A stretch of 64,000 bases of DNA, from the NCBI GenBank assembly GCA_965153355.1, contig OZ231126.1, forward strand, positions 23,250,001 to 23,314,000. Direction: 5' to 3'. Positions 1,980 to 28,800 of the stretch are shown here, piece by piece. The notes beneath the pieces were generated by a model that made no database searches, was not told where the DNA came from, and saw only the letters and a program-made list of their open reading frames with translations. A program made the translations under genes and the position numbers. This stretch comes from Flaccisagitta enflata (lineage: Eukaryota). Each line of letters opens with the position of its first letter. Position 1 is the first letter of the stretch.

Positions 1980-2555
1980 TTTTTGCCAGCCACTGGTCTC
2001 CTCTAGCCAGCCACTGCATGTCTTATTGCCAGCAACTGCGTCTCCAATCGCCAGCAACTGCGTCTCCTCTTGCCAGTGACTGCGTCTCCTCTTGCCAGCA
2101 ATCGGGTTCTTTATTGCCAGCAACTGCGTCTCCTCTAGCCAATGACTGTTTCTCCTTTTGCCAGCGACTGCATCTCCTCATGCCAGCAACTGCGTCTCCT
2201 CTTTGCAGCAACTGCATATCCTCTTGGCAGCAACTGCGTCTTCCCTTGCCAGCAACTGCGTCTTCTCTTGCCAGCAACTGCGTCTCCTCTTGCCAGCAAC
2301 TGTGTCTCCTCTTGCAAGCGACTGCATCACCTCTTGCCAGCGACTGCATCACCTCTTGCCAGCAACTGCATCTCCTCTTGCCAGCAACTGCATCTCCTCT
2401 TGCCAGCGACTGCGCCTCCTCTTGCCAGCAACTGCGTCTCCTCTTGCTAGCAACTGCGTCTCCTCTTGCAGCAACTGCGTCTCTTCTTGCAGCAACTGCG
2501 TCTCTTCTTGCAGCAACTGCGTCTCCTCTTGCCAGCAACTGCATCTCCTCTTGCT
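1980..2555. repeat. 22-bp minisatellite TGCCAGCAACTGCGTCTCCTCT
   Basis: About 25 units, including some 21-bp variants. Confidence 0.9.
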
Positions 2556-5069: not shown

Positions 5070-5956
5070 CTTTGAGATGGACCAACGGACCAACCAACTG
5101 ACCAACTGAAAAGTGGCTTATAGAGTTGCGTAGCACACAACTAAACAAGGCAGGTGGTCAGACACTATATTTGATACTGGACATTTATTCCGATAATAAA
5201 AAACGTAAAAATGAGTAAAGTGTTCTGGGGCGATGGACCAACGAGTGACGGACAAACGGACCAACGGACCAACAGACCAACCGCACTGTGCTTTCAAAAA
5301 AGATCTGAGTGGAAAATCACATAACTGTGAGTTTCTTTGCATTTTTGTGTAGTGTTAGGGTGTGATAACATGTAACTAGCCAAAATAAAATCATTCACCG
5401 AGCGCTTTTTGAAAAATCTTCAAAATTAAAAAACATTAAACCCATTTTCAATGAAGATTCTACTGAGTTGTACTAACTTATTTTTTTTACTTTATAGTTC
5501 TAATCTATGCAAAATTCCCTTTCATATGATAGGTCACACTATATGGTTTGGTTTTAAAACAAAGTTTTCATTTTGTGAGCCACCGTTACTTTTTTGTAAT
5601 GGTGACTCAAAAAATGAAAATTGTAATTCTTTGCAAAAGTATGGAGTACGACCTATCAAATGAAAGAGAATTTTGCATAGATAAACAATATGGAGTCAAA
5701 AAATAGGTCAATATAACTCTGTAGAATTTTCATTGAAAATGAATCTAATTTTTTTCCATTTTGAAGATTACTCCAAAAGTGCTTGGTGAATGATTTTATT
5801 TTGGCTAATTACATGTTATCACACCCCAACACTACACAAAAATGCAGAGAAACTCACAGTTATGTGATTTTTCACTCAGATTCTTTTTGAAAGCACAGTG
5901 ACCGACCGATTGATGGACTAAGCAGGGTGTAGAGTCGCGTTGGTCGTGACTAAAAA
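5070..5956 (-). mobile_element. Tandem degenerate HINE-type elements interrupted by a fold-back MITE
   Basis: TGTAGAGTCGCGTTGGTCGTGACTAAAAA (5928-5956) and TATAGAGTTGCGTAGCACACAACTAAACAAGGC (5119-5151), with GACC/GGAC repeats. Confidence 0.6.
5284..5900. mobile_element. 617-bp fold-back MITE with CACTGTG...CACAGTG termini (CMC: Chapaev/Transib-like)
   Basis: Arms are reverse-complementary almost to the centre (~5590). Both flanks read ACCG, a candidate 4-bp TSD. Confidence 0.8.
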
Positions 5957-5961: not shown

Positions 5962-6024
5962 TCATTTAATATCAATCACAACCGTATACCAGTGTGATCC
6001 AACACAGACATTTGACTGAACATT
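5962..6024 (-). pseudogene. Relic C-terminal 20 codons plus stop of a sister Helentron protease domain
   Basis: Translates NVQSNVCVGSHWYTVVIDIK*, compared with NVKSNVCVGSHWYTVVFEFE* at the end of the main ORF. Differences are mostly synonymous and the stop is at the same position. Confidence 0.8.
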
Positions 6025-6026
6025 TT

Positions 6027-6111
<85 letters not shown>

Positions 6112-6244: not shown

Positions 6245-9200
6245 TTACTCAAATTCGAAGACCACCGTATACCAATGTGAACCCACGCAAACATTTGACT
6301 TAACGTTTGCTTTTCTCTGTTCATCATTTAAGACAGCATCATTGATACAAAAGACTGCATATTTCCTCTGACCGTTTTTAGGGAATGAAACATCCTTAAA
6401 ATCAGATGCCACTAATGATTTAAATAAGTTGACATCTTGTACAAAAAACCACTCTAAATTGTAGTCACCAGTCAAACTAGTGACTAAGTTCAATATTTGC
6501 ACAGAGTCTAGCAGTTGCGCATCACTGTGATCAATGTTGAGTAGATAATTGTATGCCACTATATCTGGATGATAGCTTGGATGATCATACTTACCAAGTG
6601 ATATCCAACTATCATGTTGCGATTGATAGATAAAACTTGCAATACACGCGCTTATGTACCCACAACTATTACCAATTTGTGTCGTACTATTGCAGTTAGT
6701 AGTAAGAAAACCATGGTTGTTCAGGTATTGAATGACATCATTTGATGACCGCGTGTTTAGTCTATCAATTACATAGGCTACTTTTTTTGCGGGTAATTGT
6801 TTTAAAGTGGGAAACTGTCCATCTGTTTCAGCACAATTACTTTGAATTATATCAGTCTCTGTAGAGCAATCCATGTCATCTGATTTTGAACAGTCATCAG
6901 AAAATGTGTCCATTGTTGAAACGTCTCCGTCATCCACAACATCCCTGTTATCGTCATGTATAGATTTTAATCCAAAATATGTCGGATGGTGATCACTGTA
7001 GTAACATGGATTACAACCAAAAATATATTCCCTATTTGTCTTGATATACATTTGGTCAATGCTAGTGCCAAACCTTGTAGTCTCATCAAGGGGAAGTCGG
7101 GAAAAACCATTTTCCAAAAGAATGTCAATACTTTTGCCGCAATTGAAATCACCACCAATAAGAATATCACACTCATAACCAACTGTTTCTTTCAATGCCA
7201 TTTCAAGACACTGGATTTTATGTTTCATTAAACTCTTTGGACTGAAGTAAAGACCAACAATTACAAAATCTCCCATGGAGCAAATGATTAACTGACAGTA
7301 ATATGAATTATCTTGGATGTTTATATCTTTCATCAAGCGGACATTCTGATTTAACTTGGCATACAAACATATCCCCCCTGGTACACGTTTATCATTATTC
7401 ATGCATAAACCGGCAACAAAATTATATCCTGGTAAACTAAGAATTTCATTTTTTTTCAGTCTTGTGTCTATGAAAAAGATTAGGTCTGATGCTAAAAGAC
7501 TGAAATCATTTCTTACATCATCAATGTGACAATACAATGAATTTACATTAAAAAAGGATATAATTTTGTTACAATTGGTAATGCTATACAGGGGAGTCCA
7601 AGTTAACCGAATTCTTTTTGCCAACAAGTTAGCATAACCTTCCCGTACTTCATCCTCTCTTGTCCTGCCTCCAGACTTCTTCCTTGCTTCTTCCTCTCTA
7701 TACCATGGATCCTCAAAAGTTCCAATAATTGTCAAATTGTCAATTGTGTCTGTCCGTGAGAAAGCAACGTACAACTGGCGCCGAGGAATTTTCCTTCTTG
7801 CATTTAGATGGACAATAGTTTGAATTCCTATGTGGTTATTTCCTTGTGCTTTGCAAATGGTAAAACCATATGCATAGTACAAGGGAAAACACACAACTCG
7901 TCCCGTCAAACGTTTTCTGCAAGTTGGAAAATTTTTGGCAACTTTCCATATTGGTGTTAGGCCATTTTGGACATGTTGCTTGTATCGCTGATTGTTCATC
8001 AATAACTGTCGGCGGTTTTTACCAACTTCTTCATGGTCAAACTTAACCCAGAGGGTGATAGGTTTACCTTGGCTATCGATATCAACATGTCGCAAAGTGC
8101 CTATTGCACCATTGACAAGTCCATCAGTCAGGTCCACATTAACGGGGATAAAATACCGCCCGTCAACTTTGTAATCAACATGAAGCCTAAGTCCAACTGT
8201 CTCGGTATGGTCATGTCTGTCTCGTATGGCCTGCTTTACTTTGTCTTTTACTGCCTTAGTTTCATCACCCATGATTGACAACTCTGATTCAACCAAATGT
8301 GATTCCCCTTTAACCGCAGCAATTAGCTGATCATTATGAGCATTAACATCTGCATTAAATGCAAATAGGTCAATTCTCATGTTAGGTTCAATTTTCAAAT
8401 CCTCTTCGTTCTTCACTCGGCTCTTGAAAAGGGCAACATTTTGAGCAGACATAGGAGCGGACGCATCCGACAAATCACAAAGGGCATCTTGTAAGCTTTT
8501 GTCTGCTTGTCTCATAATTTCTGTCAGTTGGAAGCTACAAAAACTTTCAAAAAGTACTCCCTCTGAAATAATGCCGTATGGGTCTTTGGCATCATGTTCA
8601 AAAATGTGCCTGTCTCCCACTGGTCCCAGTTGACAAGGATCACCATACAAAACAATATTTAGACCACCAAAATCATCATGAGGATTTGATTTGATAAGTT
8701 TGAGATGTCGATTAATTTTGGAAAGCATGGAACTTCCTATGTAGGTAAATTCATCACCTGACAGGTGAGTAATATTGGCAAAAACACCCATGAGATGATG
8801 TAAAGTTTTGTCAGCAATCATTCCACTGGCATTATCATATCCTTTCATTGCTCGAATTCCAAGAGCAGAATGAAAGGTATGGCCAGAAGCATTAAATGCA
8901 GCATTACCTGTATATGCACAGATAATGCTGTAAGAAACATTTGGATCATTTCCTCTCATGGTTGAGTAAAAATGATCAATCCATGTATTGATTGCTTTCA
9001 AAACCTTAGATTTTCCAGTTCCTGCTTTCCCAATTACAACAAAATGATATGGTAATCCCTTAGTTTCACGACTCACAATCTCAAGAAAAATTTCTTTCTG
9101 TTTAAGATTGAGAGCGCGAAACATCAGGTGCATATCATTTTGATCTATCTTTTTCTTTTTAACCGACAACTCATCCTCCTTCAGGTAATCAAATCCTAAT

Positions 9201-12200
9201 TCATTTGATATGTCAGTGGGAATCAAATCAAATGAATTAACCATTTTATTTTGGTGCTCATTGACTTTTTTTGCAAGGCTTTCTTCCTCGTCAACAACTG
9301 GGACCAAATTGTGGTCATGCTCATACTCATTCATGGCGTCATCAAGCACTTTCTTTTTCATTTTGTGGTAGAATGAGCGAGCTTCTTCAATCTGTTTTTC
9401 CATGGAGATATATCTGTCTCCGTAAGTTTCAAAGTCACCAGTGATTTCTGCTTCTTTACGCCATGAAGTAAAAAGTAGAAGTTGAACACGAGCAAAGTCG
9501 TCAAATTGAGTTTTTGGATCATACTGATAATACAAAATTACTTTTGTCTTTTTATCTGTCAGCCTCCCAGAAACATAATCGATAAGATTAACATTTTCAA
9601 AAACTTTATCTCTTACTGCATAGCGCTGAAAGCAGTCTGTGAGAAAAATATCTTCACTATCAGGAGATAGGGATGCTAATGCCTTCGATGATTTTAACAT
9701 CTTCACACGTTCAGCAGTTGGATAAGTATTTATCCGAACTTTTGTGCGAGTAGAGGAGACCAAAGGCATTTGCAAAAGATTATATCCAACCTCCTGACTG
9801 GAAATCTCACTGGCACCTTGAAACTCACGGACAAACTTGAAAAACTGTTCTCTCAAACAGTTATTCTTCTTTTTACACTCGCTTGTGACTTTTTGAAGAA
9901 GCTTGCTCATACCACGATAAGATTTGCCAATGTAAGAAACTATGTAGTGACAAACGGAATATGGATCCAGTATATACTGAATATCCATATTCCCACCCCA
10001 AACCTTTAGAAGAGTATCATTATAATTATTAGTTCTGATGGACTTAACATTCCTCCTCAAAAAAACTGTAGGTTTTTTTATTTCAAATGAAAGTGCCATC
10101 AGATACTCAGTTTCATTCATTTCTAAGTTATTCAGAAACTGTTCAAAAGTCATGTTGAATACATCAGCATTGGAAATATCAAGGGAGGAAAGATAATCAT
10201 TGATGATTTTGATGTTACCATTTAATATTTTCTTCATATCTTTCTTCCTTTCAACAAATTCCTCAGCTGATAATTCAACATCACCATTGCTTGTTTTTAT
10301 ATAATGATCCAAATCTAAAGGCTCTAAAATGATAGTCATAGGTAATGGTTTTCTTGGAAAACCAAACCTACACTTGTATCGTTTACCATTAACTTTAGCA
10401 CTCTTTTTATCCAAATTTTCATTGATGTTTTCCTTATTGTCCGGGGTTTTCTTTTTTTGCGCACCCCTGACAGTTTTCCTACATGTCAATTTATGACGAT
10501 GGACTTGGCACTTGAGATGAAAAGGAATGTCAAGCAGCTCATTTCCAGGTAGATCAACTGAAATGAACTTGTCAATGTAGTTGCATATTGATTGTTTGTC
10601 ATGAACGCCATATTTTGGAGCAGATTCAATCCAAACAACCATATGTACATGCGGACTGCCCCTATTTTGGAACTCAATCCGCATGAAATAGTCATCAGTA
10701 TCATCATTGTATCCAAGGGTTGGCTTCACAACCATGTTGAAGAACATTCGAAACCGATGATCAAAATGTCTGGATGTCAAAATGGGATTTTCACGAATCA
10801 AAGTCACTTTGTCAATCCATGACATTTTGGCCACCTCATCCAAAGTCAATGTTTTGCCATGTTTTTCAAAATATAGACTTTGAATGACTTCTGGCCATAT
10901 AGTCTCAGCGGCAGAAAAGGTGAGAAAGAAAGATGGCATACCCAATTGGCGTATCATCCCTTTTAATTCACCTTGAATTTTTTGCCAATAGGCCGGTGAC
11001 GACCTATCAGACATGAGTACTTTATACCCACTATTGTGCTGGATAAGACTATTGCCAGAGGTTCCCAGAATGTCCTTGGCAGTGATATTTGAACCATCTA
11101 GACATTTGTTCTTTTTCAGGTTCACAAACACTGAATTTTTCAGTGCAAATGTTTGTGAAACACGATACAGAGCAAATGGAAATTGATAGTGTAAACGAAA
11201 CCTTGGATCATGATGCTCCATATACAGCTTCGCAACATCCGCAATAGAGAGTGGTATCAAACTTTCTTTGGGTAATTGACCTGCAAAGAGAGTAGGATAC
11301 GCAGCCCTAAGCGCATGTTGATCTAGAGTCAGGGGGAGAGGTACTTGCCCCTCCCCCGGCGCGATACTGAATGATTTCAAAGCCATCGAAATATTGCTAA
11401 TGTCTTCGATCTCATTCAGTATCATTGTGTCAGAATTACCTACATTTTGACATTCCTTTTCTACTTTTTCAGTCCATCCATCGTCATCTTCATCATCAAC
11501 AGCTTCATTGTTCTCAGGACCATTTTCACAATCTTTAACATCATTGCCATTATCATTTGCCATGTCATGATCATCAACTGTATTTTCATTCATCCCACTT
11601 GACATAGTGTCACAATCAATCATAGCAACGTCAGGATCATCATCATTTTCTTGTATATCATCAAGACATGGAGGGACAATGATTGAATTGTTTATGTTGT
11701 TTCTCAAAAGTGAGATATTACCCTCACTTAAGGTAATGTCCAACTTTTTGTACAGCTCTGTATTGATGAGATAATTCAATGCCGAGCAAACATTTTCCAA
11801 ACTAATATTCATGGTGAGGTATGAATGGTCATACTTCATTTTTCGTTTGAAATTCAGAGTAACAACATTATCAGCAGAGGTTAATGGCAGCTGAGAGACC
11901 ATTTTTTCCATTGGTATTGGTACATTCACAGCATTACTGACAATGCCGCGTTGAGCACCGATTCCAAGGCTTTTTACTCTAACAAAGAAGGTACGTGGTG
12001 CCACTAACCTCTCCTCTCCATCATTCAAAGTCCTAATGAAATCAGGAACATGAGGTAATTCATTGTTGTTAGCTACAGCTAACTTAGGAAGATTACCTTG
12101 TGTAATGTGATTTTGGCATGTCTTGCAGATATACAAGCAGTTATCAATACTAGGGATATCCTTTAACCAGTCAATGTTGATGTTGTTATGAGTGACTTTT

Positions 12201-14824
12201 TTGTCCCTCATAACTTTTGACAGCTTAACCACCTGTTCACGGAACATACTCCGAGCACATGATACACAATAAAAATGAGGTCCATCAGCAATGGCTTTGA
12301 AAAAAGTCTGAAATTCAGATTCAATCTCCTTTCTGTCTACCTGGTATGATTCGTCATGAGATTGAATCTGAATCTTTTTCATTGTTTGGATCAGCTTTTT
12401 TGTAGCTTCATCACTGAAAACTTCAGAGCTCTTTTGCCTATTCTTTGCTTGTCGCACTTTCTGCATTCTAACCTTCGCTTCTTCTCTTGATTCCGCCTTT
12501 TCCTTCTCTTCTTGTGCTTCCCTTAAATTCTGCATTCTAACCTTCGCTTCTTCTCTTGATTCCGCCTTTTCCTTCTCTTCTTGTGCCTCCCTCAAATTCT
12601 TCATTCTATTTTTCATTTCTTCTCTAAATTCTTTCTTTTCTTCCTCATCTTGTTCTTCCCTCAGTTGCTGTTTTCTTTTTCTGTCCCTGCTTTTCTCATC
12701 TTCTTTTTGTTCCTCATTTTGCTCTTCCCTCAAGGTCTTCATTCTATTCTTTGCTTCTTCCCTCAATTCATCTTTTTCTTCTTCTGCCTGCTCTTCCCTC
12801 AAATTCTTCATTCTATTTTTCATTTCTTCTCTAAATTCTTTCTTTTCTTCCTCATCTTGTTCTTCCCTCAGTTGCTGTTTTCTTTTTCTGTCCCTGCTTT
12901 TCTCATCTTCTTTTTGTTCCTCATTTTGCTCTTCCCTCGTGTTCTTCATTCTATTCTTTGCTTCTTCTCTCAGTTTTTCTTTTTTCTTCTCATCTTGTTT
13001 AGCTCTTTGTTTTCTTTTTCTATCTCTCTCTTCACTGGCCGTTCTCTTCTTGCCACCTCCGCTGAGGTTCATATTGTTATAGATGGTATTGCATGAACCA
13101 TTAGATTCAACATGTTCTACCATTATACCATTCCGTGTATGAAAAGTCACACGGATTTTTTCTATACCTTGGTGAGTAGAATTTGGCTCTGCAGCTGCGC
13201 AATTAAAAAACTTTTTCAACTTTTTGATGACTTTTTGACGTTTTTTCCTCCCGAGATTTACATGGTTGCTAGTTCTGTCATTGGTATATGATGATTCAGA
13301 TGTATGAGCATTGTTATGTAACTCTACCTTCTGGCTTCCATCACCATTAAAAATCATTTGATCAGTTTGGGCTGCTGCGCGCTTCTGTTGAAAGGACAGA
13401 ATTTTCTGCCTTAATCGCATCTCAGCACTAGCTCTGTCTGTCTCAATTTTTGGACCAACGGATAGACCAGCAGATAAGGTATTGGAGGGATCAACAGATG
13501 GACCAAAAAATGGATCAACAGGTGAAGGAACAGGCAGATCAACAGATGGATTAATAGAGGGATAAACAGGAGGTTCCAAAGAAAGATCGTCACATGGACC
13601 AACGGACAAACCTTCAGATGAACCAAATACTCGATCAGCGGATGGACTCGTGTATTGATCAGCAGATGGGCAAATGGTTTGGTCAGCAGATGAACCTACA
13701 GATGGTAAAACCCTCTTAGAGTGATGAAATGGAGATGAGCAAACAACTTTGACCGAACGTTTTCTTAAGATGTTTTTTGCCAGTCGGTCAACTTGTCTCT
13801 CTTCTCCACTTTTTTGTTTTTTCAAATGACTTTTTTGAATAAAAGCATCAACTGGTGAGCTATCAAATGACCTTTGAAGTTCTTCTACCTTCGCTCTACG
13901 TCTCTTCTTTTCTGCTTTCTTTTTGGGAGCAACTTTGTTTGATACATCAATGAATTTTTGCGTATTTCTTTTCTTGCTCAAAGGAGAACATTCAAAATGC
14001 ATCTCCTTTTCCAAAGATAAATTGCTTTCTTTAAGAAGCCTTCCAAACCGTGCATCAATCAAAGTTGCATCTTCCCTTTTCTTTTTCTCAGCTCTTTTCA
14101 TAACTTCAAAGTTTGCCAAACGCATGTCAATTGATTTCAAAGGAGATGCTTTTATTTTTGGATGTTGCAAAGGGGGAAATTCATCGTTGGAAAATTTCTT
14201 TTGCTCACAGACTTGTAAAACCGACCATGCATATTTGCTCTTGCCATCTGGTGCCAAATGAATTCCGTCCTTTGCAACATGCTTCTCCATTTTATGTGTT
14301 GGCAAAGGTGGAATATGACGCAACTTCGAATGAAAATTTATATTTAACTGGTTGACATCATGAACACACCTATTTGCCATCAAAATCCAATTGTTATCCC
14401 CATATTTGGGAAACCTGCCGCGCAAATCATTATTACAAATGCGACGAGGTGTGAGGGGATAGACAAACAGACGTCGGACAAATGGATGATCCATCACAAT
14501 TTTCAATTCTGTATTTCGTCTTGTTATAAAATCTTCAAGATCGAAATGCAGTGATTTGGAAATGGATTCAGAAAGATCAACTGCTCCAGAGATCAAAAAC
14601 ACATCGACCAGGATGTCGCAATCGTTTCTGTTGACAAATTCTGCCATTTGCCAAGGGAAAACTTTCTTGACAAGAAAATTTGTGGTTTTCCCTGGTCTAA
14701 AATCTGTTGTCACGACATCCAAATCGAAATGTGTTTTCATCTTGGAGCAGAGGAGAGCGTCATTAGGAAAATATCCATGGAGAATACTGTCTCCAAGGAT
14801 AAGCCCAATTTTCAACTGCATCAT
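6245..14824 (-). CDS. Helentron (Helitron2-type) RepHel-endonuclease polyprotein, 2859 aa, with extra N-terminal SGNH hydrolase and C-terminal papain-like Cys/His domain
   Basis: Uninterrupted ORF. Rep motifs FFLTFSAAE, EFQNRGSPHVH (HUH) and YSVCHYIVSYIGK. PIF1 motifs GKAGTGKS, GDEF, GDPCQLGPV, LTEIMRQ, TICKAQG, QLYVAFSR. EEP/AP endonuclease motifs FFNVNSL, GGDFN, SIDQMY, YYSDH. N-terminal ILGDS...KDGIHL; C-terminal QIGNSCG...SHWY. Confidence 0.95.
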   Translation of the reverse strand: MMQLKIGLILGDSILHGYFPNDALLCSKMKTHFDLDVVTTDFRPGKTTNFLVKKVFPWQMAEFVNRNDCDILVDVFLISGAVDLSESISKSLHFDLEDFITRRNTELKIVMDHPFVRRLFVYPLTPRRICNNDLRGRFPKYGDNNWILMANRCVHDVNQLNINFHSKLRHIPPLPTHKMEKHVAKDGIHLAPDGKSKYAWSVLQVCEQKKFSNDEFPPLQHPKIKASPLKSIDMRLANFEVMKRAEKKKREDATLIDARFGRLLKESNLSLEKEMHFECSPLSKKRNTQKFIDVSNKVAPKKKAEKKRRRAKVEELQRSFDSSPVDAFIQKSHLKKQKSGEERQVDRLAKNILRKRSVKVVCSSPFHHSKRVLPSVGSSADQTICPSADQYTSPSADRVFGSSEGLSVGPCDDLSLEPPVYPSINPSVDLPVPSPVDPFFGPSVDPSNTLSAGLSVGPKIETDRASAEMRLRQKILSFQQKRAAAQTDQMIFNGDGSQKVELHNNAHTSESSYTNDRTSNHVNLGRKKRQKVIKKLKKFFNCAAAEPNSTHQGIEKIRVTFHTRNGIMVEHVESNGSCNTIYNNMNLSGGGKKRTASEERDRKRKQRAKQDEKKKEKLREEAKNRMKNTREEQNEEQKEDEKSRDRKRKQQLREEQDEEEKKEFREEMKNRMKNLREEQAEEEKDELREEAKNRMKTLREEQNEEQKEDEKSRDRKRKQQLREEQDEEEKKEFREEMKNRMKNLREAQEEKEKAESREEAKVRMQNLREAQEEKEKAESREEAKVRMQKVRQAKNRQKSSEVFSDEATKKLIQTMKKIQIQSHDESYQVDRKEIESEFQTFFKAIADGPHFYCVSCARSMFREQVVKLSKVMRDKKVTHNNINIDWLKDIPSIDNCLYICKTCQNHITQGNLPKLAVANNNELPHVPDFIRTLNDGEERLVAPRTFFVRVKSLGIGAQRGIVSNAVNVPIPMEKMVSQLPLTSADNVVTLNFKRKMKYDHSYLTMNISLENVCSALNYLINTELYKKLDITLSEGNISLLRNNINNSIIVPPCLDDIQENDDDPDVAMIDCDTMSSGMNENTVDDHDMANDNGNDVKDCENGPENNEAVDDEDDDGWTEKVEKECQNVGNSDTMILNEIEDISNISMALKSFSIAPGEGQVPLPLTLDQHALRAAYPTLFAGQLPKESLIPLSIADVAKLYMEHHDPRFRLHYQFPFALYRVSQTFALKNSVFVNLKKNKCLDGSNITAKDILGTSGNSLIQHNSGYKVLMSDRSSPAYWQKIQGELKGMIRQLGMPSFFLTFSAAETIWPEVIQSLYFEKHGKTLTLDEVAKMSWIDKVTLIRENPILTSRHFDHRFRMFFNMVVKPTLGYNDDTDDYFMRIEFQNRGSPHVHMVVWIESAPKYGVHDKQSICNYIDKFISVDLPGNELLDIPFHLKCQVHRHKLTCRKTVRGAQKKKTPDNKENINENLDKKSAKVNGKRYKCRFGFPRKPLPMTIILEPLDLDHYIKTSNGDVELSAEEFVERKKDMKKILNGNIKIINDYLSSLDISNADVFNMTFEQFLNNLEMNETEYLMALSFEIKKPTVFLRRNVKSIRTNNYNDTLLKVWGGNMDIQYILDPYSVCHYIVSYIGKSYRGMSKLLQKVTSECKKKNNCLREQFFKFVREFQGASEISSQEVGYNLLQMPLVSSTRTKVRINTYPTAERVKMLKSSKALASLSPDSEDIFLTDCFQRYAVRDKVFENVNLIDYVSGRLTDKKTKVILYYQYDPKTQFDDFARVQLLLFTSWRKEAEITGDFETYGDRYISMEKQIEEARSFYHKMKKKVLDDAMNEYEHDHNLVPVVDEEESLAKKVNEHQNKMVNSFDLIPTDISNELGFDYLKEDELSVKKKKIDQNDMHLMFRALNLKQKEIFLEIVSRETKGLPYHFVVIGKAGTGKSKVLKAINTWIDHFYSTMRGNDPNVSYSIICAYTGNAAFNASGHTFHSALGIRAMKGYDNASGMIADKTLHHLMGVFANITHLSGDEFTYIGSSMLSKINRHLKLIKSNPHDDFGGLNIVLYGDPCQLGPVGDRHIFEHDAKDPYGIISEGVLFESFCSFQLTEIMRQADKSLQDALCDLSDASAPMSAQNVALFKSRVKNEEDLKIEPNMRIDLFAFNADVNAHNDQLIAAVKGESHLVESELSIMGDETKAVKDKVKQAIRDRHDHTETVGLRLHVDYKVDGRYFIPVNVDLTDGLVNGAIGTLRHVDIDSQGKPITLWVKFDHEEVGKNRRQLLMNNQRYKQHVQNGLTPIWKVAKNFPTCRKRLTGRVVCFPLYYAYGFTICKAQGNNHIGIQTIVHLNARRKIPRRQLYVAFSRTDTIDNLTIIGTFEDPWYREEEARKKSGGRTREDEVREGYANLLAKRIRLTWTPLYSITNCNKIISFFNVNSLYCHIDDVRNDFSLLASDLIFFIDTRLKKNEILSLPGYNFVAGLCMNNDKRVPGGICLYAKLNQNVRLMKDINIQDNSYYCQLIICSMGDFVIVGLYFSPKSLMKHKIQCLEMALKETVGYECDILIGGDFNCGKSIDILLENGFSRLPLDETTRFGTSIDQMYIKTNREYIFGCNPCYYSDHHPTYFGLKSIHDDNRDVVDDGDVSTMDTFSDDCSKSDDMDCSTETDIIQSNCAETDGQFPTLKQLPAKKVAYVIDRLNTRSSNDVIQYLNNHGFLTTNCNSTTQIGNSCGYISACIASFIYQSQHDSWISLGKYDHPSYHPDIVAYNYLLNIDHSDAQLLDSVQILNLVTSLTGDYNLEWFFVQDVNLFKSLVASDFKDVSFPKNGQRKYAVFCINDAVLNDEQRKANVKSNVCVGSHWYTVVFEFE
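6248..6790 (-). other. Putative papain-fold cysteine protease domain (DUB/Josephin-like motif spacing)
   Basis: Q-x4-C motif TTQIGNSCGYISACIA followed by a predicted helix, and a terminal GSHWYTVV strand. It is separated from the endonuclease by an acidic D/S-rich linker. Confidence 0.6.
6970..7565 (-). other. AP-like (EEP fold) endonuclease domain
   Basis: NVNSL, IFFIDT (canonical ET appears as DT), GGICLY, GLYFSP, GGDFN, SIDQMY, SDHHP. Confidence 0.88.
7740..9115 (-). other. PIF1-family SF1B helicase domain
   Basis: LNLKQ, Walker A GKAGTGKS (~9008-9031), GHTFHSALG, GDEF, FGGLNIVLYGDPCQL, GLVNGAIG, YVAFSR. Confidence 0.92.
9900..11000 (-). other. HUH Rep (rolling-circle initiator) core of RepHel
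   Basis: Motif I FFLTFS (~10915-10932), motif II PHVH (~10643-10654), motif III HYIVSYIGK (~9923-9950). Confidence 0.92.
12450..13010 (-). repeat. Eight 23-aa (69-bp) charged coding repeats, STPR-like, with a 3-unit higher-order duplication
   Basis: Units REEQNEEQKEDEKSRDRKRKQQL, REEQDEEEKKEFREEMKNRMKNL, REEQAEEEKDELREEAKNRMKTL and REAQEEKEKAESREEAKVRMQNL are each 23 aa. The second copy is at about 29140-29700. Confidence 0.8.
14210..14812 (-). other. SGNH/GDSL hydrolase domain at the RepHel N-terminus (about aa 5-205)
   Basis: Block I ILGDS (Ser13), block II FRPGKT, block III ISGAVDL (GxND-like, N replaced by V) and block V KDGIHL, in the right order and spacing. Confidence 0.8.
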
Positions 14825-15063
14825 TTTGATGAAAAAGGGACAAATACAGTAAAGGATGGGGGAATCAATGGAACTATTGCTAAAAAACTGTCGCGGACGC
14901 GGAAGAGGGGAAGGGGCAGGGACGCAAATTCACTTTTATGAAGTCTTTGATCATTGATCTATGGACTTACAGACGGACCAACAGACAGGCAAACAAAGCC
15001 TCTTTTAAAGTCGCGAGTCCGCAAATAAATGTAAAAAATTACCAATCTATTTTACACATACTA

Positions 15064-15137
<74 letters not shown>

Positions 15138-17545: not shown

Positions 17546-17608
<63 letters not shown>

Positions 17609-17881
17609 GTCTACACGTATCTCTCTTTCTCTCTTTTTTTTCTTTTTTTTCTTTTTTTTCTTTCTTTCTGTCTTACTTTCTCCTTTGAATCCTAGTTACC
17701 TCCTCCTTCTTCTTCTTCTTCTTCTTCTTCTTTCGATTCTCGATTTCTCAATTGTCATTTGTCATTCATTTACCGAGAGGATGAAAAGACTCCTGGTATG
17801 AGACGCGCCCTTTAATTTTCAACCTTAAACGTAAAACAAATGAACAACATCGGAAGTCATAGCAAATGGCCAGGATGCTCT

Positions 17882-17935
<54 letters not shown>

Positions 17936-19536: not shown

Positions 19537-19627
<91 letters not shown>

Positions 19628-19773
19628 GTGTGTACGTGGCTGTGTGTGTACGTGGCTGTGTGTACGTGTTTGGGCCTATGCGTGTGTCCAAGACAATGTC
19701 TGTCTTTTTACAGCAATTAAACTGCCCGTACGTCTGAATGTCCTCTTGACTGCATTCCTGTCTTTCTTTCTGC

Positions 19774-19818
<45 letters not shown>

Positions 19819-22618: not shown

Positions 22619-22666
<48 letters not shown>

Positions 22667-22899: not shown

Positions 22900-22961
<62 letters not shown>

Positions 22962-23294: not shown

Positions 23295-25889
23295 ATGAGC
23301 CAAAACAAAGCGAATTTTTCTGCTCGTGGATCCTCTCAATATGGTTGCATTTTTTGTTCTTTAAAACTCGCCGATCAAATCTCTCTGAAACACCACGTGG
23401 AAGACGTCCACAAAGGCCGCACATTCCTTTGTAGCAATTGTGGAGCGCAATTACGATTTCACACAAATTTGTCGAAACACAAACACGTGACGTGTTTAAA
23501 TACCAGATTCATCGTGTGCTATTTCCCGGAGAAGGCGCGTATTCCCAAGGCTAGCCCCGACACGAAATGTCCAACTTGTTTTCTTATATTTCCCAATTCC
23601 GTTCTAAACCGTCATCATTTCGAAGAATTCCACTGCCAACGAAGATTTCATTGCAACTTTTGCCATCAAGTTGTCGTTTCCCATCGCGATCTTCTCGCGC
23701 ACGTTTATCAACACGATGGCAACAACGTGACATTCGAAGCGAAATACGGCAAACGCCCACAGCATGTAAAATCAATACCCTTACACAAATGCCCCGACTG
23801 CGGGGGAATATTTTCGCATGCTGATAATTTAATCCGGCACAAAAGAATTGTTCATAGTCACACAGGCAAACCTATCTCGCCCAAACTCTCCAATACTCTT
23901 ATGGGTAGTCGTCGGTTTATGTGCATGGACTGTGGTAAACGGGTCAATGATAAAGTAGCTCACAAACGAAGTCATCATCCAAATGAGAGTATTACATTTG
24001 TCACTTCGTGGGGACCAGAACGTAACAAAAAGAAGATATTCTCGACATTGTCTGTAAATTCTTTAAGGAAAGACATTCCACAAGCCGGTAAAAGTAGTGA
24101 AGCCACTGACAATAAGAACACCGGCGACGTCATACTAATCACTGATAACGAGAAGGCCATTGATAACAATGAAACTACTAACACAACAGAGGTTACTGGT
24201 GAAGGTCAAAAGAACCAAGAAATCAACGATATCAATCTAATCAATGATGGCATTAACGCCACTGATAAAGGACAGACAAACAAAAAAACTTATGACATCA
24301 TCCATGCTTCTGATAGCGATGTGGTCTTTGACGATGAGAAAACTGACGACATTGTTCTCATCATCACTGACAGTGTTGCGGCCACTGATAAGGGCCAGAC
24401 CAACAGTTGCATTCAAGACACTGAATACGGTGAGGCCTCTAATGATGAGGAGACTAATGAAATAACTCATATCTCTGAAGACAATGAGGCCACTGGTAAA
24501 GAAGTAACCGAAGACAACATTGTAGTTTCTCATTGCAATGAAGTCACTGACAGAGGAGAAAATAATGACATCATCCAGAATACTAACAGCAGTCAAACCA
24601 CCAAAAATAACGAGTCTAATGACAAGAATGAGACAAATGATGACATCATAGCTTCAGATGGAATTGAGGCCAGTAATAACAGGAATGGTAGTAATGAAAA
24701 GAATGAAATAAAGATGATAAGAATAAGAAAGATGATAAGAAAATTGATAAGAAAGAATAAAACCGCCGACAGCACTGAGGCCAGCGATAAGGATGAAATG
24801 AGCATCAGCAAAGATACCATCGAGGCTGATGACTGCAACGCTGATGTCATAGTGATAAGTGATGGTGAAGAGACTAACATCCTCGACAAACGCGCCGTCG
24901 AGGCCAAAGACAACGACTGTAAAGGCGACAAGGAATATTGCGACGTCGATGACGACAACGACGATGCCGCCGATGTAGCCGATGTCATTGACCTCACAGA
25001 TGATGGAGGAACAGCTTTCATTTCCAGCAAGAATGTGGCACCGGATTATCCTGGAGGGGCGCATTATCGCAGCTTCAACTTTAATGGCGTTGTAATCCGG
25101 CGCTGTCGAGTTTCTCTCCGACGGCTTGATCAAGACGAGGAATGTGACTCTGAGTGGGCAAGGCCGAGAGGAACGGGATCTTCAAAGAAGCGAAAAATTG
25201 ACACAAGGGCGAATGCTAGATATTTCGTCTGTAACCATTGTAGCGAGATATTCCGTCATGTGGCTGATCACAAAATCCATGTGGAAGACGTGCACAAAGG
25301 GCGTGTTTACACATGCATTTGCAGAATCGAGTTGCGCGGATATTACGCTATGCATAAGCATAAACGAACATGCCGTAAAAGCAGTTTCTGTTCATTTACC
25401 GTCTCTTATGATCCACCTTTTGATCAGGAAGCGACTTCTACTACCAGAAACAAATGTAGAGTGAATATACCAACTTTAACAAGAACTTCTGCAAGATCAG
25501 TGACAAATAGGATCAGTAAAAGATACACTTCATTAGCGGTCAATGAAGTACAAGAAGAAATTCTAGATGAAGTTCAAGATGACTCTACTATTACTCATAC
25601 CAATAATCATGATTCAAATGATAAACGTTCAACGCATCCTGAAAGTGATACTGCGGATGGTTGTCATGATCAGATTCCACCCACAAGGGTGGATGCCGGG
25701 CTTGGAGCGAGTGGATCCGTTATCTCAACTAATGTTATAGCGAGTTGGCAGAAAGAAAATACCGCATCAACCAAAAAGACCCAACCGCTTCCATCTAGTG
25801 ACATCGTGAATGAAAATTTGTCGCCTTCTGTGATCTATCTTTTTCTTTTTAACCGACAACTCATCCTCCTTCAGGTAATCAAATCCTAA
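23295..25889 (+). pseudogene. 3'-truncated duplicate of the C2H2 zinc-finger gene (864 aa; last ~18 aa come from antisense Helentron sequence)
   Basis: Translation matches 40244-42781 up to ...ENLSPSV, then diverges at the duplication junction. Confidence 0.85.
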
Positions 25890-28800
25890 TTCATTTGATA
25901 TGTCAGTGGGAATCAAATCAAATGAATTAACCATTTTATTTTGGTGCTCATTGACTTTTTTTGCAAGGCTTTCTTCCTCGTCAACAACTGGGACCAAATT
26001 GTGGTCATGCTCATACTCATTCATGGCGTCATCAAGCACTTTCTTTTTCATTTTGTGGTAGAATGAGCGAGCTTCTTCAATCTGTTTTTCCATGGAGATA
26101 TATCTGTCTCCGTAAGTTTCAAAGTCACCAGTGATTTCTGCTTCTTTACGCCATGAAGTAAAAAGTAGAAGTTGAACACGAGCAAAGTCGTCAAATTGAG
26201 TTTTTGGATCATACTGATAATACAAAATTACTTTTGTCTTTTTATCTGTCAGCCTCCCAGAAACATAATCGATAAGATTAACATTTTCAAAAACTTTATC
26301 TCTTACTGCATAGCGCTGAAAGCAGTCTGTGAGAAAAATATCTTCACTATCAGGAGATAGGGATGCTAATGCCTTCGATGATTTTAACATCTTCACACGT
26401 TCAGCAGTTGGATAAGTATTTATCCGAACTTTTGTGCGAGTAGAGGAGACCAAAGGCATTTGCAAAAGATTATATCCAACCTCCTGACTGGAAATCTCAC
26501 TGGCACCTTGAAACTCACGGACAAACTTGAAAAACTGTTCTCTCAAACAGTTATTCTTCTTTTTACACTCGCTTGTGACTTTTTGAAGAAGCTTGCTCAT
26601 ACCACGATAAGATTTGCCAATGTAAGAAACTATGTAGTGACAAACGGAATATGGATCCAGTATATACTGAATATCCATATTCCCACCCCAAACCTTTAGA
26701 AGAGTATCATTATAATTATTAGTTCTGATGGACTTAACATTCCTCCTCAAAAAAACCGTAGGCTTTTTTATTTCAAATGAAAGCGCCATCAGATACTCAG
26801 TTTCATTCATTTCTAAGTTATTCAGAAACTGTTCAAAAGTCATGTTGAATACATCAGCATTGGAAATATCAAGGGAGGAAAGATAATCATTGATGTTTTT
26901 GATGTTACCATTTAATATTTTCTTCATATCTTTCTTCCTTTCAACAAATTCCTCAGCTGATAATTCAACATCACCATTGCTTGTTTTTATGTAATGATCC
27001 AAATCTAAAGGCTCTAAAATGATAGTCATAGGTAATGGTTTTCTTGGAAAACCAAACCTACATTTGTATCGTTTACCATTAACTTTAGTACTCTTTTTAT
27101 CCAAATTTTCATTGATGTTTTCCTTATTGTCCGGGGTTTTCTTTTTTTGCGCACCCCTGACAGTTTTCCTACATGTCAATTTATGACGATGGACTTGGCA
27201 CTTGAGATGAAAAGGAATGTCAAGCAGCTCATTTCCAGGTAGATCAACTGAAATGAACTTGTCAATGTAGTTGCATATTGATTGTTTGTCATGAACGCCA
27301 TATTTTGGAGCAGATTCAATCCAAACGACCATATGTACATGCGGACTGCCCCTATTTTGAAACTCAATCCGCATGAAATAGTCATCAGTATCATCATTGT
27401 ATCCAAGAGTTGGCTTCACAACCATGTTGAAGAACATTCGAAACCGATGATCAAAATGTCTGGATGTCAAAATGGGATTTTCACGAATCAAAGTCACTTT
27501 GTCAATCCATGACATTTTGGCCACCTCATCCAAAGTCAATGTTTTGCCATGTTTTTCAAAATATAGACTTTGAATGACTTCTGGCCATATAGTCTCAGCG
27601 GCAGAAAAGGTGAGAAAGAAAGATGGCATACCCAATTGGCGTATCATCCCTTTTAATTCACCTTGAATTTTTTGCCAATAGGCCGGTGACGACCTATCAG
27701 ACATGAGTACTTTATACCCACTATTGTGCTGGATAAGACTATTGCCAGAGGTTCCCAGAATGTCCTTGGCAGTGATATTTGAACCATCTAGACATTTGTT
27801 CTTTTTCAGGTTCACAAACACTGAATTTTTCAGTGCAAATGTTTGTGAAACACGATACAGAGCAAATGGAAATTGATAGTGTAAACGAAACCTTGGATCA
27901 TGATGCTCCATATACAGCTTCGCAACATCCGCAATAGAGAGTGGTATCAAACTTTCTTTGGGTAATTGACCTGCAAAGAGAGTAGGATACGCAGCCCTAA
28001 GCGCATGTTGATCTAGAGTCAGGGGGAGAGGTACTTGCCCCTCCCCCGGCGCGATACTGAATGATTTCAAAGCCATCGAAATATTGCTAATGTCTTCGAT
28101 CTCATTCAGTATCATTGTGTCAGAATTACCTACATTTTGACATTCCTTTTCTACTTTTTCAGTCCATCCATCGTCATCTTCATCATCAACAGCTTCATTG
28201 TTCTCAGGACCATTTTCACAATCTTTAACATCATTGCCATTATCATTTGCCATGTCATGATCATCAACTGTATTTTCATTCATCCCACTTGACATAGTGT
28301 CACAATCAATCATAGCAACGTCAGGATCATCATCATTTTCTTGTATATCATCAAGACATGGAGGGACAATGATTGAATTGTTTATGTTGTTTCTCAAAAG
28401 TGAGATATTACCCTCACTTAAGGTAATGTCCAACTTTTTGTACAGCTCTGTATTGATGAGATAATTCAATGCCGAGCAAACATTTTCCAAACTAATATTC
28501 ATGGTGAGGTATGAATGGTCATACTTCATTTTTCGTTTGAAATTCAGAGTAACAACATTATCAGCAGAGGTTAATGGCAGCTGAGAGACCATTTTTTCCA
28601 TTGGTATTGGTACATTCACAGCATTACTGACAATGCCGCGTTGAGCACCGATTCCAAGGCTTTTTACTCTAACAAAGAAGGTACGTGGTGCCACTAACCT
28701 CTCCTCTCCATCATTCAAAGTCCTAATGAAATCAGGAACATGAGGTAATTCATTGTTGTTAGCTACAGCTAACTTAGGAAGATTACCTTGTGTAATGTGA

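What the first reader, a model, noticed from the sequence alone, without database searches (positions are those of the whole stretch)
6245..14824. Intact Helentron polyprotein flanked by two extra enzymes: N-terminal SGNH esterase and C-terminal cysteine-protease-like domain
Seen: one 8.58-kb stop-free frame carrying SGNH motifs (GDS, G, GAVD, DGIH), STPR-like repeats, Rep, PIF1, EEP endonuclease and a Q-x4-C...HW domain. Established: Helentrons encode Rep-PIF1-AP endonuclease, and some carry OTU-type proteases. Transposon SGNH esterases are mainly known from ORF1 of CR1/L2/RTEX-type non-LTR retrotransposons, where lipid or membrane binding has been proposed. Inference: I do not know of an SGNH-RepHel-EN-protease fusion, so this may be an undescribed Helentron lineage whose transposase has a lipid- or membrane-interacting module. 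The intact frame suggests recent activity.
Basis: partly seen in the sequence, partly recalled or inferred. Interest (0 to 1): 0.85.

Follow-up and report, generated by a model that had tools for sequence, protein, structure and literature searches.

The report
Intact Helentron transposase with SGNH esterase
This is an apparently intact rolling-circle transposon (Helentron) gene whose giant protein starts with an esterase-type domain and ends with a conserved domain of unknown kind, a variation on a transposon-esterase link already reported in fish.

Summary
Window 6245-14824 (minus strand) is one 2,859-codon ORF with DUF6570, HUH Rep and PIF1 helicase, an EEP endonuclease (weak here, clearer in relatives), a 23-residue repeat array, an N-terminal domain and a C-terminal domain.

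The N-terminal 215 residues model confidently (pLDDT 90.1). Foldseek matches them to SGNH/GDSL hydrolases (best E 2.7e-7). Ser, Gly and Asp-x-x-His are conserved across relatives, but the block III Asn is Val.

A 2,791-aa relative at 64% identity has the same end-to-end architecture. Its SGNH part is as conserved (77%) as Rep and helicase, against about 35% for linkers.

The C-terminal domain keeps an invariant Q-x-G-x-S-C-G-Y and G-x-H. It matched no protease family or fold in Pfam, PDB or BFVD, so "protease-like" stays unproven.

SGNH genes ("texim") next to fish Helitrons were published in 2014 (PMC4021074). An in-frame fusion was not found in my searches.

Verdict: new variant of a known kind, moderate interest.

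The parts
6245..14824 (-). Complete Helentron ORF, 2,859 aa plus stop (stop codon at 6245-6247, ATG at 14824)
14180..14824 (-). N-terminal SGNH-fold domain, aa 1-215. Ser13 (GDS), Gly45, Gly80-Ala81-Val82-Asp83 (Val where SGNH has Asn), Asp186-x-x-His189. No signal peptide-like extension: strand 1 starts at residue 4.
   Evidence: AF2 pLDDT 90.1, pTM 0.84. Foldseek PDB: 134 matches at E<=0.001; of the 35 rows shown, all but two designed scaffolds are SGNH/GDSL-type esterases or acyltransferases. Column conservation.
13055..14179 (-). Poorly conserved linker, aa 216-590 (Ser/Pro- and Lys-rich)
   Evidence: 35-57% identity to P0002, with gaps
12459..12999 (-). Array of about eight 23-aa charged repeats (69-nt period), of the type xExREEAKNRMKNLREEQxEEEK
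   Evidence: TRF; translation; no Pfam STPR match
11714..12292 (-). CxxC...CxxC zinc-finger-like motif plus DUF6570 (Pfam aa 910-1037)
   Evidence: E 5.7e-14
10634..11230 (-). Rep (HUH) domain, Helitron_like_N aa 1199-1397, with IEFQNRGSPHVH and YIVSY
   Evidence: E 1.1e-27; motif read. The Ser in RG-S-P-HxH is the Helentron-diagnostic residue according to PMC4067079 (passage read).
7625..9112 (-). PIF1-like helicase (Pfam core aa 1905-2113; Walker A GKAGTGKS)
   Evidence: E 3.9e-17
6965..7561 (-). EEP (AP-type) endonuclease domain, aa about 2422-2620, with GGDFN and SDH motifs
   Evidence: Window: Exo_endo_phos_2 E 0.02 only. It aligns to the C-terminal part of P0036, where Pfam places Exo_endo_phos at 27.2 bits against a cut-off of 24.5. 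Relatives P0037, P0035 and P0038 give E 1.6e-4 to 0.014.
6248..6769 (-). Conserved C-terminal domain of unassigned family, aa 2686-2859. Invariant Gln2716, Gly2718, Ser2720, Cys2721, Gly2722, Tyr2723, Asn2828-Asp2829 and Gly2848-x-His2850.
   Evidence: Alignments A3 and A4 of 6 sequences. AF2 domain pLDDT about 76-94 per block. No fold or family match.
25794..31514 (-). Second, 3'-truncated copy of the ORF (aa 1-1919, 98.1% aa identity), created by the 16.7-kb tandem duplication. Includes an intact SGNH domain.
5965..6030 (-). Diverged extra copy of the last 22 codons of the ORF (...NVQSNVCVGSHWYTVVIDIK*), lying behind a (GA)37 tract downstream of the stop

Best explanation
This is an apparently intact autonomous Helentron (HLE2-type rolling-circle transposon) gene. 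Its single 2,859-aa protein carries, in order:
1. An SGNH-fold esterase-type domain.
2. A disordered linker and 23-aa charged repeats.
3. A zinc-finger/DUF6570 module.
4. The HUH Rep nuclease.
5. A PIF1-like helicase.
6. An EEP (AP-type) endonuclease.
7. A roughly 175-aa C-terminal domain with an invariant Gln/Cys/His signature.

Shown: the architecture, the SGNH fold, the presence of the same architecture in a relative at 64% identity, and sequence constraint on both extra domains.

Inferred: Rep-Hel-EN performs rolling-circle transposition as in other Helentrons. The SGNH domain is an integral, selected accessory module of a small Helentron lineage rather than a chance passenger. It is most likely still a hydrolase, because the Ser-His-Asp triad and the Gly of the oxyanion hole are kept even though the Asn is replaced by Val. 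It would act on a small ester or acyl group, or anchor the protein to anionic lipids, as shown for the ORF1p esterase of the zebrafish L2 retrotransposon. The C-terminal domain is most likely a thiol-dependent hydrolase that fills the role OTU, VTD, UCH or Ulp1 domains play in other Helentrons. That step is the weakest.
For: - ORF and core domains. The Helentron-diagnostic RGSPHxH is; the criterion is from PMC4067079.
- EEP.
- SGNH fold: AF2 on a 27-sequence alignment gave pLDDT 90.1 and pTM 0.84. Foldseek PDB gave 134 matches at E<=0.001, best 7trr at E 2.7e-7 and TM about 0.5. The listed rows are SGNH/GDSL esterases or acyltransferases, including PAF-AH 1bwp, apart from two designed scaffolds.
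- Weak sequence echoes from SGNH proteins: PatB and 2hsj at E 0.14-0.22. 3 of 13 relatives hit Lipase_GDSL_2 or DUF459 at E 1.8e-4 to 3.8e-3. Atlas neighbours are GDSL families at 0.92-0.93.
- Catalytic columns in 27 aligned sequences: Ser 19 of 21 covered, Gly 22 of 22, Asp 17 of 18, His 17 of 18.
- Family: 31 hits at E<=0.001 in 1.84 billion representatives. Wherever a hit covers the query's N-terminus, the match starts within the first 12 residues of the protein.
- P0002 (2,791 aa) has SGNH through to the C-terminal domain in one protein. P0007 continues from SGNH into the pre-repeat segment.
- Per-domain identity to P0002: SGNH 76.7%, Rep 80.6%, helicase 78.0%, EEP 62.7%, C-terminal domain 51.7%, linkers 34-38%.
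- The two in-window copies differ at 18 synonymous and 17 non-synonymous sites, dN/dS 0.235. The binomial P against neutrality is 3.6e-5.
- C-terminal domain: 35 invariant columns in 6 sequences of 39-75% identity. In the model the Cys sits at the N-terminus of a helix and the His at the start of the last strand.
- Precedent for ubiquitin-type proteases in Helentrons: PMC9741609 and PMC11417382.
Against: - No Pfam or NCBIfam model recognises the window's SGNH domain.
- The oxyanion Asn of block III is Val or Ile in 18 of 24 covered sequences, and Asn in only 4. Catalysis may therefore be weak, altered or lost.
- TM-scores to solved SGNH structures are only about 0.45-0.52.
- The more distant relatives P0034 and P0035 begin downstream of the SGNH region. 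Whether their elements lack it is unknown.
- For the C-terminal domain, every family or fold test failed: Foldseek PDB best E 0.2, BFVD best E 0.14, Pfam, PHROGs and NCBIfam nothing, and the PDB profile gave only a spurious repeat hit.
- The predicted strand-helix-strand alternation of the C-terminal domain does not look like a classical papain fold (my reading).
- Element termini, target site and copy number were not determined.
- The in-window copies come from one segmental duplication, so they are not independent insertions.
Confidence: 0.7

Rival explanations
1. The SGNH part is a captured host gene (as proposed for fish texim) that happens to be fused to the transposase ORF. It is a passenger with no role in transposition.
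For: - Helitrons and Helentrons capture genes, and texim was interpreted this way (PMC4021074).
- HELIANO regards extra domains as ancient captures that may be non-essential.
- Relatives P0034 and P0035 start downstream of the SGNH region.
Against: - The SGNH domain is as conserved as Rep and helicase between two elements that are only 64% identical overall, while linkers have drifted to about 35%.
- It always sits at the very N-terminus.
- Catalytic Ser, Asp and His are kept.
- A capture event at the origin of the lineage is not excluded. Only a neutral passenger status is disfavoured.
Confidence: 0.15
2. The SGNH-fold domain has lost catalysis and serves as a binding module for nucleic acid, lipid or protein, like the non-catalytic SGNH-like OSK domain of Oskar.
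For: - The block III Asn, one of the four name-giving residues, is Val or Ile in 18 of 24 sequences.
- Pfam GDSL models fail on the window protein.
- In that paper, liposome binding by the L2 esterase did not need the active site.
Against: Ser (19 of 21), Asp (17 of 18), His (17 of 18) and the block II Gly (22 of 22) remain conserved at 35-77% overall identity. That is hard to explain without catalysis.
Confidence: 0.2
3. The C-terminal domain is not a protease or deubiquitinase. It is an alpha/beta domain of another function, such as a different thiol enzyme, a DNA- or protein-binding module, or a regulator of the endonuclease.
For: - No significant match to any peptidase in Pfam, PDB or BFVD.
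- The non-significant top fold rows are TIR and DsbA/thioredoxin-like alpha/beta proteins.
- The VTD hallmark Asp-x-His (PMC9741609) is absent: the sequences have Gly-[Ser/Asn]-His.
Against: - Invariant Gln-x4-Cys and His, with the Cys at a helix N-terminus.
- Language-model neighbours that carry a family name are mostly cysteine peptidases (C39, IpaJ, C78), but at sub-threshold scores of 0.80-0.82.
- Helentrons repeatedly carry ubiquitin-type thiol proteases.
Confidence: 0.45
4. The ORF is a domesticated, single-locus host gene derived from a Helentron rather than a mobile element.
For: - Only one locus, plus its segmental duplicate, is visible in the window.
- No termini were identified.
- Constraint on the sequence would also fit a host gene.
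Against: - All catalytic motifs of Rep, helicase and EEP are retained.
- Several diverged paralog-like relatives at 41-77% identity exist in the databases, many of them fragmentary. That is typical of a transposon family.
- A diverged scrap of another 3' end lies next to the ORF.
Confidence: 0.1

Closest known systems
Helentrons / HLE2 rolling-circle transposons (Rep-Hel-EN)
   Same: - DUF6570, HUH Rep with the diagnostic RGSPHxH, PIF1-like helicase and a C-terminal EEP endonuclease, all in one ORF.
- DUF6570 and EN are reported as almost exclusive to HLE2 (PMC11417382).
   Different: - It carries an N-terminal SGNH-fold domain that is not among the 20 extra domains listed by HELIANO: 0 occurrences of GDSL, SGNH or lipase in its text and supplement.
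- It also carries a domain of unassigned family after the endonuclease.
- Termini and target site were not determined.
texim SGNH hydrolase genes associated with Helitrons in teleost fish (PMC4021074)
   Same: An SGNH hydrolase coding region lies immediately upstream of a Helitron coding region. The authors already raised a possible role in Helitron transposition.
   Different: - texim is described as a separate multi-exon gene (15 exons), with the Helitron in its last intron or 3 kb downstream, and is read as a captured host gene.
- Here the SGNH domain is the first 215 residues of one uninterrupted 2,859-aa transposase ORF.
- Whether the two SGNH domains are homologous at family level could not be tested, because no texim sequence was available to the tools.
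ORF1p esterases of CR1/L2, RTEX and Penelope-type retroelements (ZfL2-1, PDB 4c1b; PMC3905857), and GDSL esterase ORFs of rotifer Terminons and LTR elements (PMC6431247)
   Same: A transposon-encoded SGNH-fold esterase. For ZfL2-1, hydrolytic activity and binding to anionic liposomes are shown. This is the functional analogy used here.
   Different: - Those are separate ORF1 proteins of retroelements with a complete S-G-N-H set (D279, H282, S143, N195, G165 in ZfL2-1).
- Here the domain is fused to a DNA-transposon RepHel protein and lacks the Asn.
- phmmer of the domain found only 31 relatives in 1.84 billion representatives, so the very numerous LINE ORF1 esterases (their abundance is recalled) are not within its reach.
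- 4c1b is not among the 35 Foldseek rows shown out of at least 134 significant matches.
Ubiquitin-type thiol proteases of Helentrons (OTU; VTD/Herpes_teg_N; UCH/USP; Ulp1)
   Same: An accessory domain with a conserved Cys and His inside a Helentron polyprotein.
   Different: - No sequence or fold match to any of them.
- VTDs have an invariable Asp-x-His. This domain has Gly-x-His.
- HELIANO reports OTU upstream of RepHel. This domain lies after the endonuclease, at the extreme C-terminus.
- The IGNSCG stretch resembles the active-site stretch of UCH-L1 as I recall it. That is a lead from memory, not a test.

Membership tests
Helentron (HLE2) | HUH Rep domain with two-Tyr motif | tested here: met
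   Helitron_like_N E 1.1e-27. HVH and YIVSY seen in the translation.
Helentron (HLE2) | PIF1-like 5'-3' helicase fused to Rep | tested here: met
   PIF1 E 3.9e-17, aa 1905-2113
Helentron (HLE2) | AP/EEP endonuclease fused to the C-terminus of Rep/Hel | tested here: met
   GGDFN and SDH motifs. The window alone gives only E 0.02. It aligns to the Exo_endo_phos region of P0036, which scores 27.2 bits against a cut-off of 24.5. 3 close relatives give E 1.6e-4 to 0.014.
Helentron (HLE2) | Diagnostic Ser in (V/I)ExQxRG-S-P-HxH (PMC4067079) | tested here: met
   IEFQNRGSPHVH; criterion read
Helentron (HLE2) | Subterminal inverted repeats, 3' palindrome, insertion between T residues | tested here: inconclusive
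   The inverted-repeat scan gave only low-complexity pairs (for example 5080-5109 with 15773-15802). No independent copy in the window defines the ends.
SGNH/GDSL hydrolase superfamily | SGNH (flavodoxin-like alpha/beta/alpha) fold | tested here: met
   AF2 pLDDT 90.1. Foldseek: 134 matches at E<=0.001, best 2.7e-7, TM about 0.5.
SGNH/GDSL hydrolase superfamily | Block I Ser (GDS), block II Gly, block V Asp-x-x-His | tested here: met
   S13, G45, D186 and H189. Conservation: 19 of 21, 22 of 22, 17 of 18 and 17 of 18.
SGNH/GDSL hydrolase superfamily | Block III Asn (GxND) of the oxyanion hole | tested here: not met
   GAVD in the window. At this column: Val 16, Ile 2, Asn 4, other 2, of 24 covered.
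SGNH/GDSL hydrolase superfamily | Match to curated sequence models (Lipase_GDSL, Lipase_GDSL_2 and similar) | tested here: not met
   0 Pfam families at E<=10 and 0 NCBIfam families at E<=1 for the window domain. 3 of 13 relatives give sub-threshold hits to Lipase_GDSL_2 or DUF459.
SGNH/GDSL hydrolase superfamily | Esterase or acyl-hydrolase activity | not testable with these tools
   Needs a biochemical assay.
Texim (fish Helitron-associated SGNH hydrolases) | Membership of the Texim clade in an SGNH-domain phylogeny | not testable with these tools
   Texim sequences are given only as accession numbers in PMC4021074, and its supplement holds no sequences.
LINE ORF1p esterase | Esterase as part of an ORF1 protein of an RT-encoding non-LTR element | tested here: not met
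   The domain is the N-terminus of a RepHel-EN protein, and Pfam reported no reverse-transcriptase family on that ORF. Of the other ORFs, only the five of 250 aa or more were scanned, and they gave none.
VTD (viral tegument-like DUB) of Helentrons | Invariable Asp-x-His plus catalytic Cys; Herpes_teg_N-type fold | tested here: not met
   Gly-[Ser/Asn]-His in 6 of 6 sequences. No Pfam hit. No VTD or M48 structure among the Foldseek rows shown; best E 0.2.
OTU / UCH / USP / Ulp1 cysteine proteases | Match to the family models or folds | tested here: not met
   No Pfam family of these kinds at E<=10 in 6 of 6 members. Foldseek PDB and BFVD gave no match at E<=0.1.
STPR repeats | 23-aa tandem repeat recognised by the Pfam STPR model | tested here: inconclusive
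   A 69-nt (23-aa) period is present. No Pfam repeat family was reported. The 23-aa period of STPR is recalled, not checked.

The most novel reading that the evidence does not exclude
An SGNH esterase is an integral, selected N-terminal module of a Helentron lineage, not a passenger. The fish "texim" genes, so far read as host genes captured by Helitrons, would then be remnants or spliced derivatives of such Helentron N-termini. In addition, the C-terminal Gln/Cys/His domain would be a previously unrecognised family of thiol hydrolases (possibly ubiquitin-like-protein proteases) with a fold that matched no solved structure in this search. DNA transposons, like CR1/L2, Penelope and LTR retroelements, would then have independently recruited esterases. 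That points to a general lipid- or deacylation-dependent step in transposon propagation.
Probability: 0.25. Interest if true: 0.75.

Novelty: new variant of a known kind. Interest (0 to 1): 0.5.

Why it matters
Esterases of the SGNH fold recur in unrelated retroelements: CR1/L2, RTEX, Penelope/Terminons and rotifer LTR elements. Their role is still unknown, and lipid or membrane binding is the leading idea (PMC3905857, PMC6431247).

A DNA transposon that carries the same fold fused to its transposase, and keeps it under constraint, would show the need is not tied to an RNA intermediate. It would also offer a single-protein system in which to test the idea.

The finding gives a concrete alternative to the "captured host gene" reading of fish texim genes.

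The C-terminal domain is a candidate for a new hydrolase family, in a class of elements already known to have seeded deubiquitinases into herpesviruses and host genomes (PMC9741609).

Tried and rejected
- Pfam on the isolated N- and C-terminal parts at E<=10 gave nothing relevant. One search failed on a frame slip and was corrected.
- phmmer of both parts against PDB sequences gave 0 hits.
- The profile of the SGNH family against PDB gave only marginal SGNH hits, E 0.14-0.22.
- The profile of the C-terminal family against PDB gave a designer PPR protein at E 3.9e-11. I reject this as a repeat artefact: eight copies of a weak PDVVxYN match, each with an individual E above 100.
- Foldseek of the C-terminal model against PDB and BFVD gave no match better than E 0.14. 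Atg4B and ASFV S273R protease appear only at E 0.22-0.71.
- NCBIfam and PHROGs gave nothing.
- The scan of bacterial and archaeal genomes with the C-terminal alignment gave 1 of 56 pattern matches confirmed (L001, Phyllobacterium). It lies antisense to an ABC-transporter ATPase gene and is a chance match.
- Rfam found 0 families in the window, so it gave no clue to the taxon.
- The inverted-repeat search for Helentron termini was inconclusive.
- The listing of cluster members, tried to get source names for the relatives, was switched off. The organisms of the relatives and of the window remain unknown.
- The supplement of the texim paper contains no sequences.
- One literature query was rejected for syntax and not repeated.
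Whether this architecture is already catalogued there stayed unchecked.
Full report
**1. Observation**

The window holds one very long open frame on the minus strand. Stop to stop it runs 6245..14929 (2,894 codons), far longer than any other ORF in the window. The first ATG is at 14824, which gives 2,859 aa plus a stop, or 8,580 nt, exactly the reported coordinates.

Pfam finds three domains:
- DUF6570, aa 910-1037, E 5.7e-14.
- Helitron_like_N, aa 1199-1397, E 1.1e-27.
- PIF1, aa 1905-2113, E 3.9e-17.

The translation shows the catalytic signatures directly:
- IEFQNRGSPHVH (HUH) and YIVSY in Rep.
- GKAGTGKS in the helicase.
- GGDFN and SDH in the endonuclease region.

The Ser in RG-S-P-HxH is the residue that Thomas et al. 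use to tell Helentrons from Helitrons (PMC4067079, passage read).

The EEP endonuclease is weak in the window protein itself (Exo_endo_phos_2, E 0.02). The region aligns to the C-terminal part of a Haematobia irritans Helentron-like protein, P0036. There Pfam places Exo_endo_phos above its cut-off (27.2 against 24.5 bits). Three closer relatives give E 1.6e-4 to 0.014.

A 69-nt (23-aa) repeat array lies at 12459-12999. No Pfam repeat family matches it. "STPR-like" therefore rests only on the period and the charge pattern.

**2. The N-terminal domain**

Pfam and PDB sequence searches of aa 1-260 found nothing.

An exhaustive phmmer of aa 1-230 against 1.84 billion representative proteins found only 31 proteins at E<=0.001, of which 14 are at E<=1e-30. 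One of them, P0032, is an unrelated bacterial repeat protein and I left it out of the alignments. Wherever a hit covers the query's N-terminus, the match begins within the first 12 residues of the protein.

AlphaFold2 on a 27-sequence alignment gave pLDDT 90.1 and pTM 0.84. That alignment holds the window plus 26 of the 31 hits. The five left out were P0032 and four short fragments (P0021, P0028, P0030, P0031).

Foldseek against the PDB returned 134 matches at E<=0.001:
- The best was PatB 7trr, E 2.7e-7.
- Apart from two designed scaffolds, the rows shown are SGNH/GDSL esterases or acyltransferases, including PAF-acetylhydrolase 1bwp.
- TM-scores are only about 0.45-0.52 and identities 12-20%.

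Weaker signals agree:
- The family profile touches PatB and 2hsj at E 0.14-0.22.
- 3 of 13 relatives hit Lipase_GDSL_2 or DUF459 below threshold.
- The language-model neighbours are GDSL families at 0.92-0.93.

In the alignment, the catalytic columns are conserved as follows:

| Position | Conservation among covered sequences |
|---|---|
| Nucleophile Ser | 19 of 21 |
| Block II Gly | 22 of 22 |
| Asp of DxxH | 17 of 18 |
| His of DxxH | 17 of 18 |
| Block III Asn position | Val 16, Ile 2, Asn 4, other 2, of 24 |

The fold and three of the four name-giving residues are present. The oxyanion Asn is not.

**3. Is the fusion real and constrained?**

P0002 is a 2,791-aa protein from an unnamed 8,915-nt ENA contig. 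It is 64% identical overall and has the same architecture from the first SGNH strand to the last C-terminal motif.

Identity to P0002 by domain:

| Region | Identity |
|---|---|
| SGNH | 76.7% |
| Rep | 80.6% |
| Helicase | 78.0% |
| EEP | 62.7% |
| C-terminal domain | 51.7% |
| Linkers and repeat array | 34-38% |

Partial gene models (P0003, P0006, P0007, P0010) run from the SGNH domain into the same linker. P0007 reaches the segment just before the repeats.

Two more distant relatives, P0034 and P0035, begin downstream of the SGNH region. Their contigs could not be fetched, so I cannot tell whether their elements lack it.

The window also contains a 16.7-kb tandem duplication: 9141-25832 against 25831-42781, 97.2% identical. 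It creates a second, 3'-truncated copy of the ORF covering aa 1-1919. The two copies differ at 18 synonymous and 17 non-synonymous sites, giving dN/dS 0.235. The binomial P against neutrality is 3.6e-5. The SGNH part alone has 3 synonymous and 1 non-synonymous difference, too few to stand on their own.

This result is odd for an in-situ duplicate. The co-duplicated zinc-finger ORF has 0 differences in 2,586 nt, the Helentron ORF has 35 in 5,684, and the non-coding DNA has 199 in 8,378. Gene conversion from other family members or assembly mosaicism may be involved. I leave this unexplained.

**4. The C-terminal domain**

Residues 2686-2859 are conserved in six sequences at 39-75% identity, always at the extreme C-terminus behind the endonuclease. 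There are 35 invariant columns. They include Q-x-G-x-S-C-G-Y (Gln2716, Cys2721), N-D-A (Asp2829) and G-x-H (His2850).

AlphaFold2 with these six sequences gives block means of about 76-94 pLDDT for most of the domain. One loop dips to 54. The mean is 75.7 including the disordered leader. In the model the Cys sits at the N-terminus of a long helix and the His at the start of the last strand.

No test assigned it to a family:
- Pfam: none.
- PDB sequences: none.
- PDB profile: only a repeat artefact.
- Foldseek PDB: best E 0.2.
- Foldseek BFVD: best E 0.14.
- NCBIfam and PHROGs: none.
- Bacterial genomes: one chance antisense match.

The language-model search gave only sub-threshold neighbours, 0.80-0.86. 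Those carrying a family name are mostly cysteine peptidases: C39, IpaJ and C78.

Helentron VTD deubiquitinases have an invariable Asp-x-His (PMC9741609). This domain has Gly-[Ser/Asn]-His in 6 of 6 sequences. The alternating strand-helix pattern of the model looks more like a parallel alpha/beta domain than a papain fold. That is my reading, and I could not inspect coordinates.

"Cysteine-protease-like" is therefore a reasonable hypothesis from the motif and from precedent, not a result.

**5. What is known**

- Helentrons are defined by an AP-type endonuclease fused behind Rep/Hel, and some carry OTU or RPA (PMC4067079; PMC6431247).
- The HELIANO survey of 404 genomes lists 20 stably included extra domains. 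The ones named in the passages I read are RPA, OTU, EN, STPRs, UCH, Peptidase_C48, Herpes_teg_N and DUF6570. Neither its text nor its supplement contains GDSL, SGNH, lipase or esterase. Its screen used Pfam at E 1e-3, which would miss this domain.
- Tomaszkiewicz et al. 2014 (PMC4021074; abstract, results and discussion read) described texim. These are SGNH hydrolase genes lying directly upstream of Helitron coding regions in platyfish, medaka, pufferfish and sea bass. The authors interpreted them as a captured gene and noted a possible role in transposition, by analogy with CR1 esterases.
- My literature searches found no report of an in-frame SGNH-RepHel fusion.
- The ZfL2-1 ORF1p esterase (PDB 4c1b) is catalytically active and binds anionic liposomes (PMC3905857, passages read).
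- GDSL esterases also occur in rotifer Terminons (PMC6431247). For rotifer LTR elements I saw only that review's citation of Rodriguez et al. 2017 and the search listing of PMC5408684.

**6. Verdict**

The element is a real, apparently intact Helentron gene with two accessory domains. The SGNH assignment is sound at fold level, and the fusion is conserved and constrained. The lipid or membrane function is analogy only.

The link between SGNH and Helitrons is already in print, so the novelty lies in three things:
- The single-ORF architecture.
- The Asn-less active site.
- The unassigned C-terminal domain.

I could not test the relationship to texim, the termini, the copy number, the host taxon, or Repbase/Dfam.

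Noticed in passing
window 9141-25832 and 25831-42781: A perfect head-to-tail tandem duplication of 16.7 kb (97.2% identity including gaps). Its junction cuts both the Helentron ORF and a zinc-finger ORF. Divergence is very uneven: 0 of 2,586 nt in the zinc-finger ORF, 35 of 5,684 in the Helentron ORF and 199 of 8,378 in non-coding DNA. That is hard to reconcile with a single duplication date.
   Followed up: partly
window 40196-45221 (+), partial copy at 23247-25889 (+): A large ORF pair (1,250 aa plus 488 aa in another frame) encodes C2H2 zinc fingers separated by acidic and Asn/Gln-rich low-complexity stretches, with very long poly-Q and poly-N runs. It is probably a host gene or pseudogene. 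Only zf-C2H2 is found by Pfam.
   Followed up: partly
window 5965-6030 (-): A second, 81%-identical copy of the last 58 nt of the Helentron ORF, extending to 22 codons in the protein search. It encodes nearly the same peptide and its own stop, and lies behind a (GA)37 A8 tract about 215 nt downstream of the real stop. The differences are mostly synonymous, so it seems to come from another family member.
   Followed up: partly
window 6031-6105 and 15067-15134: Perfect (TC)37 and (TC)34 microsatellites in the same orientation flank the ORF, about 140 nt past the stop and 240 nt before the ATG. Whether they mark the limits of the element is unknown.
   Followed up: no
window 5284-5900: A foldback, MITE-like structure with 203-nt arms that are 89% complementary and a 211-nt loop, just downstream of the Helentron ORF. 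GGTCCGTT-type low-complexity motifs recur on both sides of the ORF.
   Followed up: no
window 1983-2554: A tandem array of a 22-nt unit, 26 copies at 84% match. There are further 20-21-nt satellite-like arrays at 56-1137 and 16323-17167.
   Followed up: no
protein P0029 (664 aa): A distant member of the SGNH family (29% identity, with canonical GAND in block III) carries C2H2-like zinc-finger motifs near its C-terminus. The domain family may therefore also occur in another protein context, or in a more divergent Helentron N-terminus.
   Followed up: no
L001 3001-3183: The only 'relative' of the C-terminal domain found in bacterial genomes is an antisense chance match (FAIFCINDA) inside an ABC-transporter ATPase gene of Phyllobacterium salinisoli.
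   Followed up: yes
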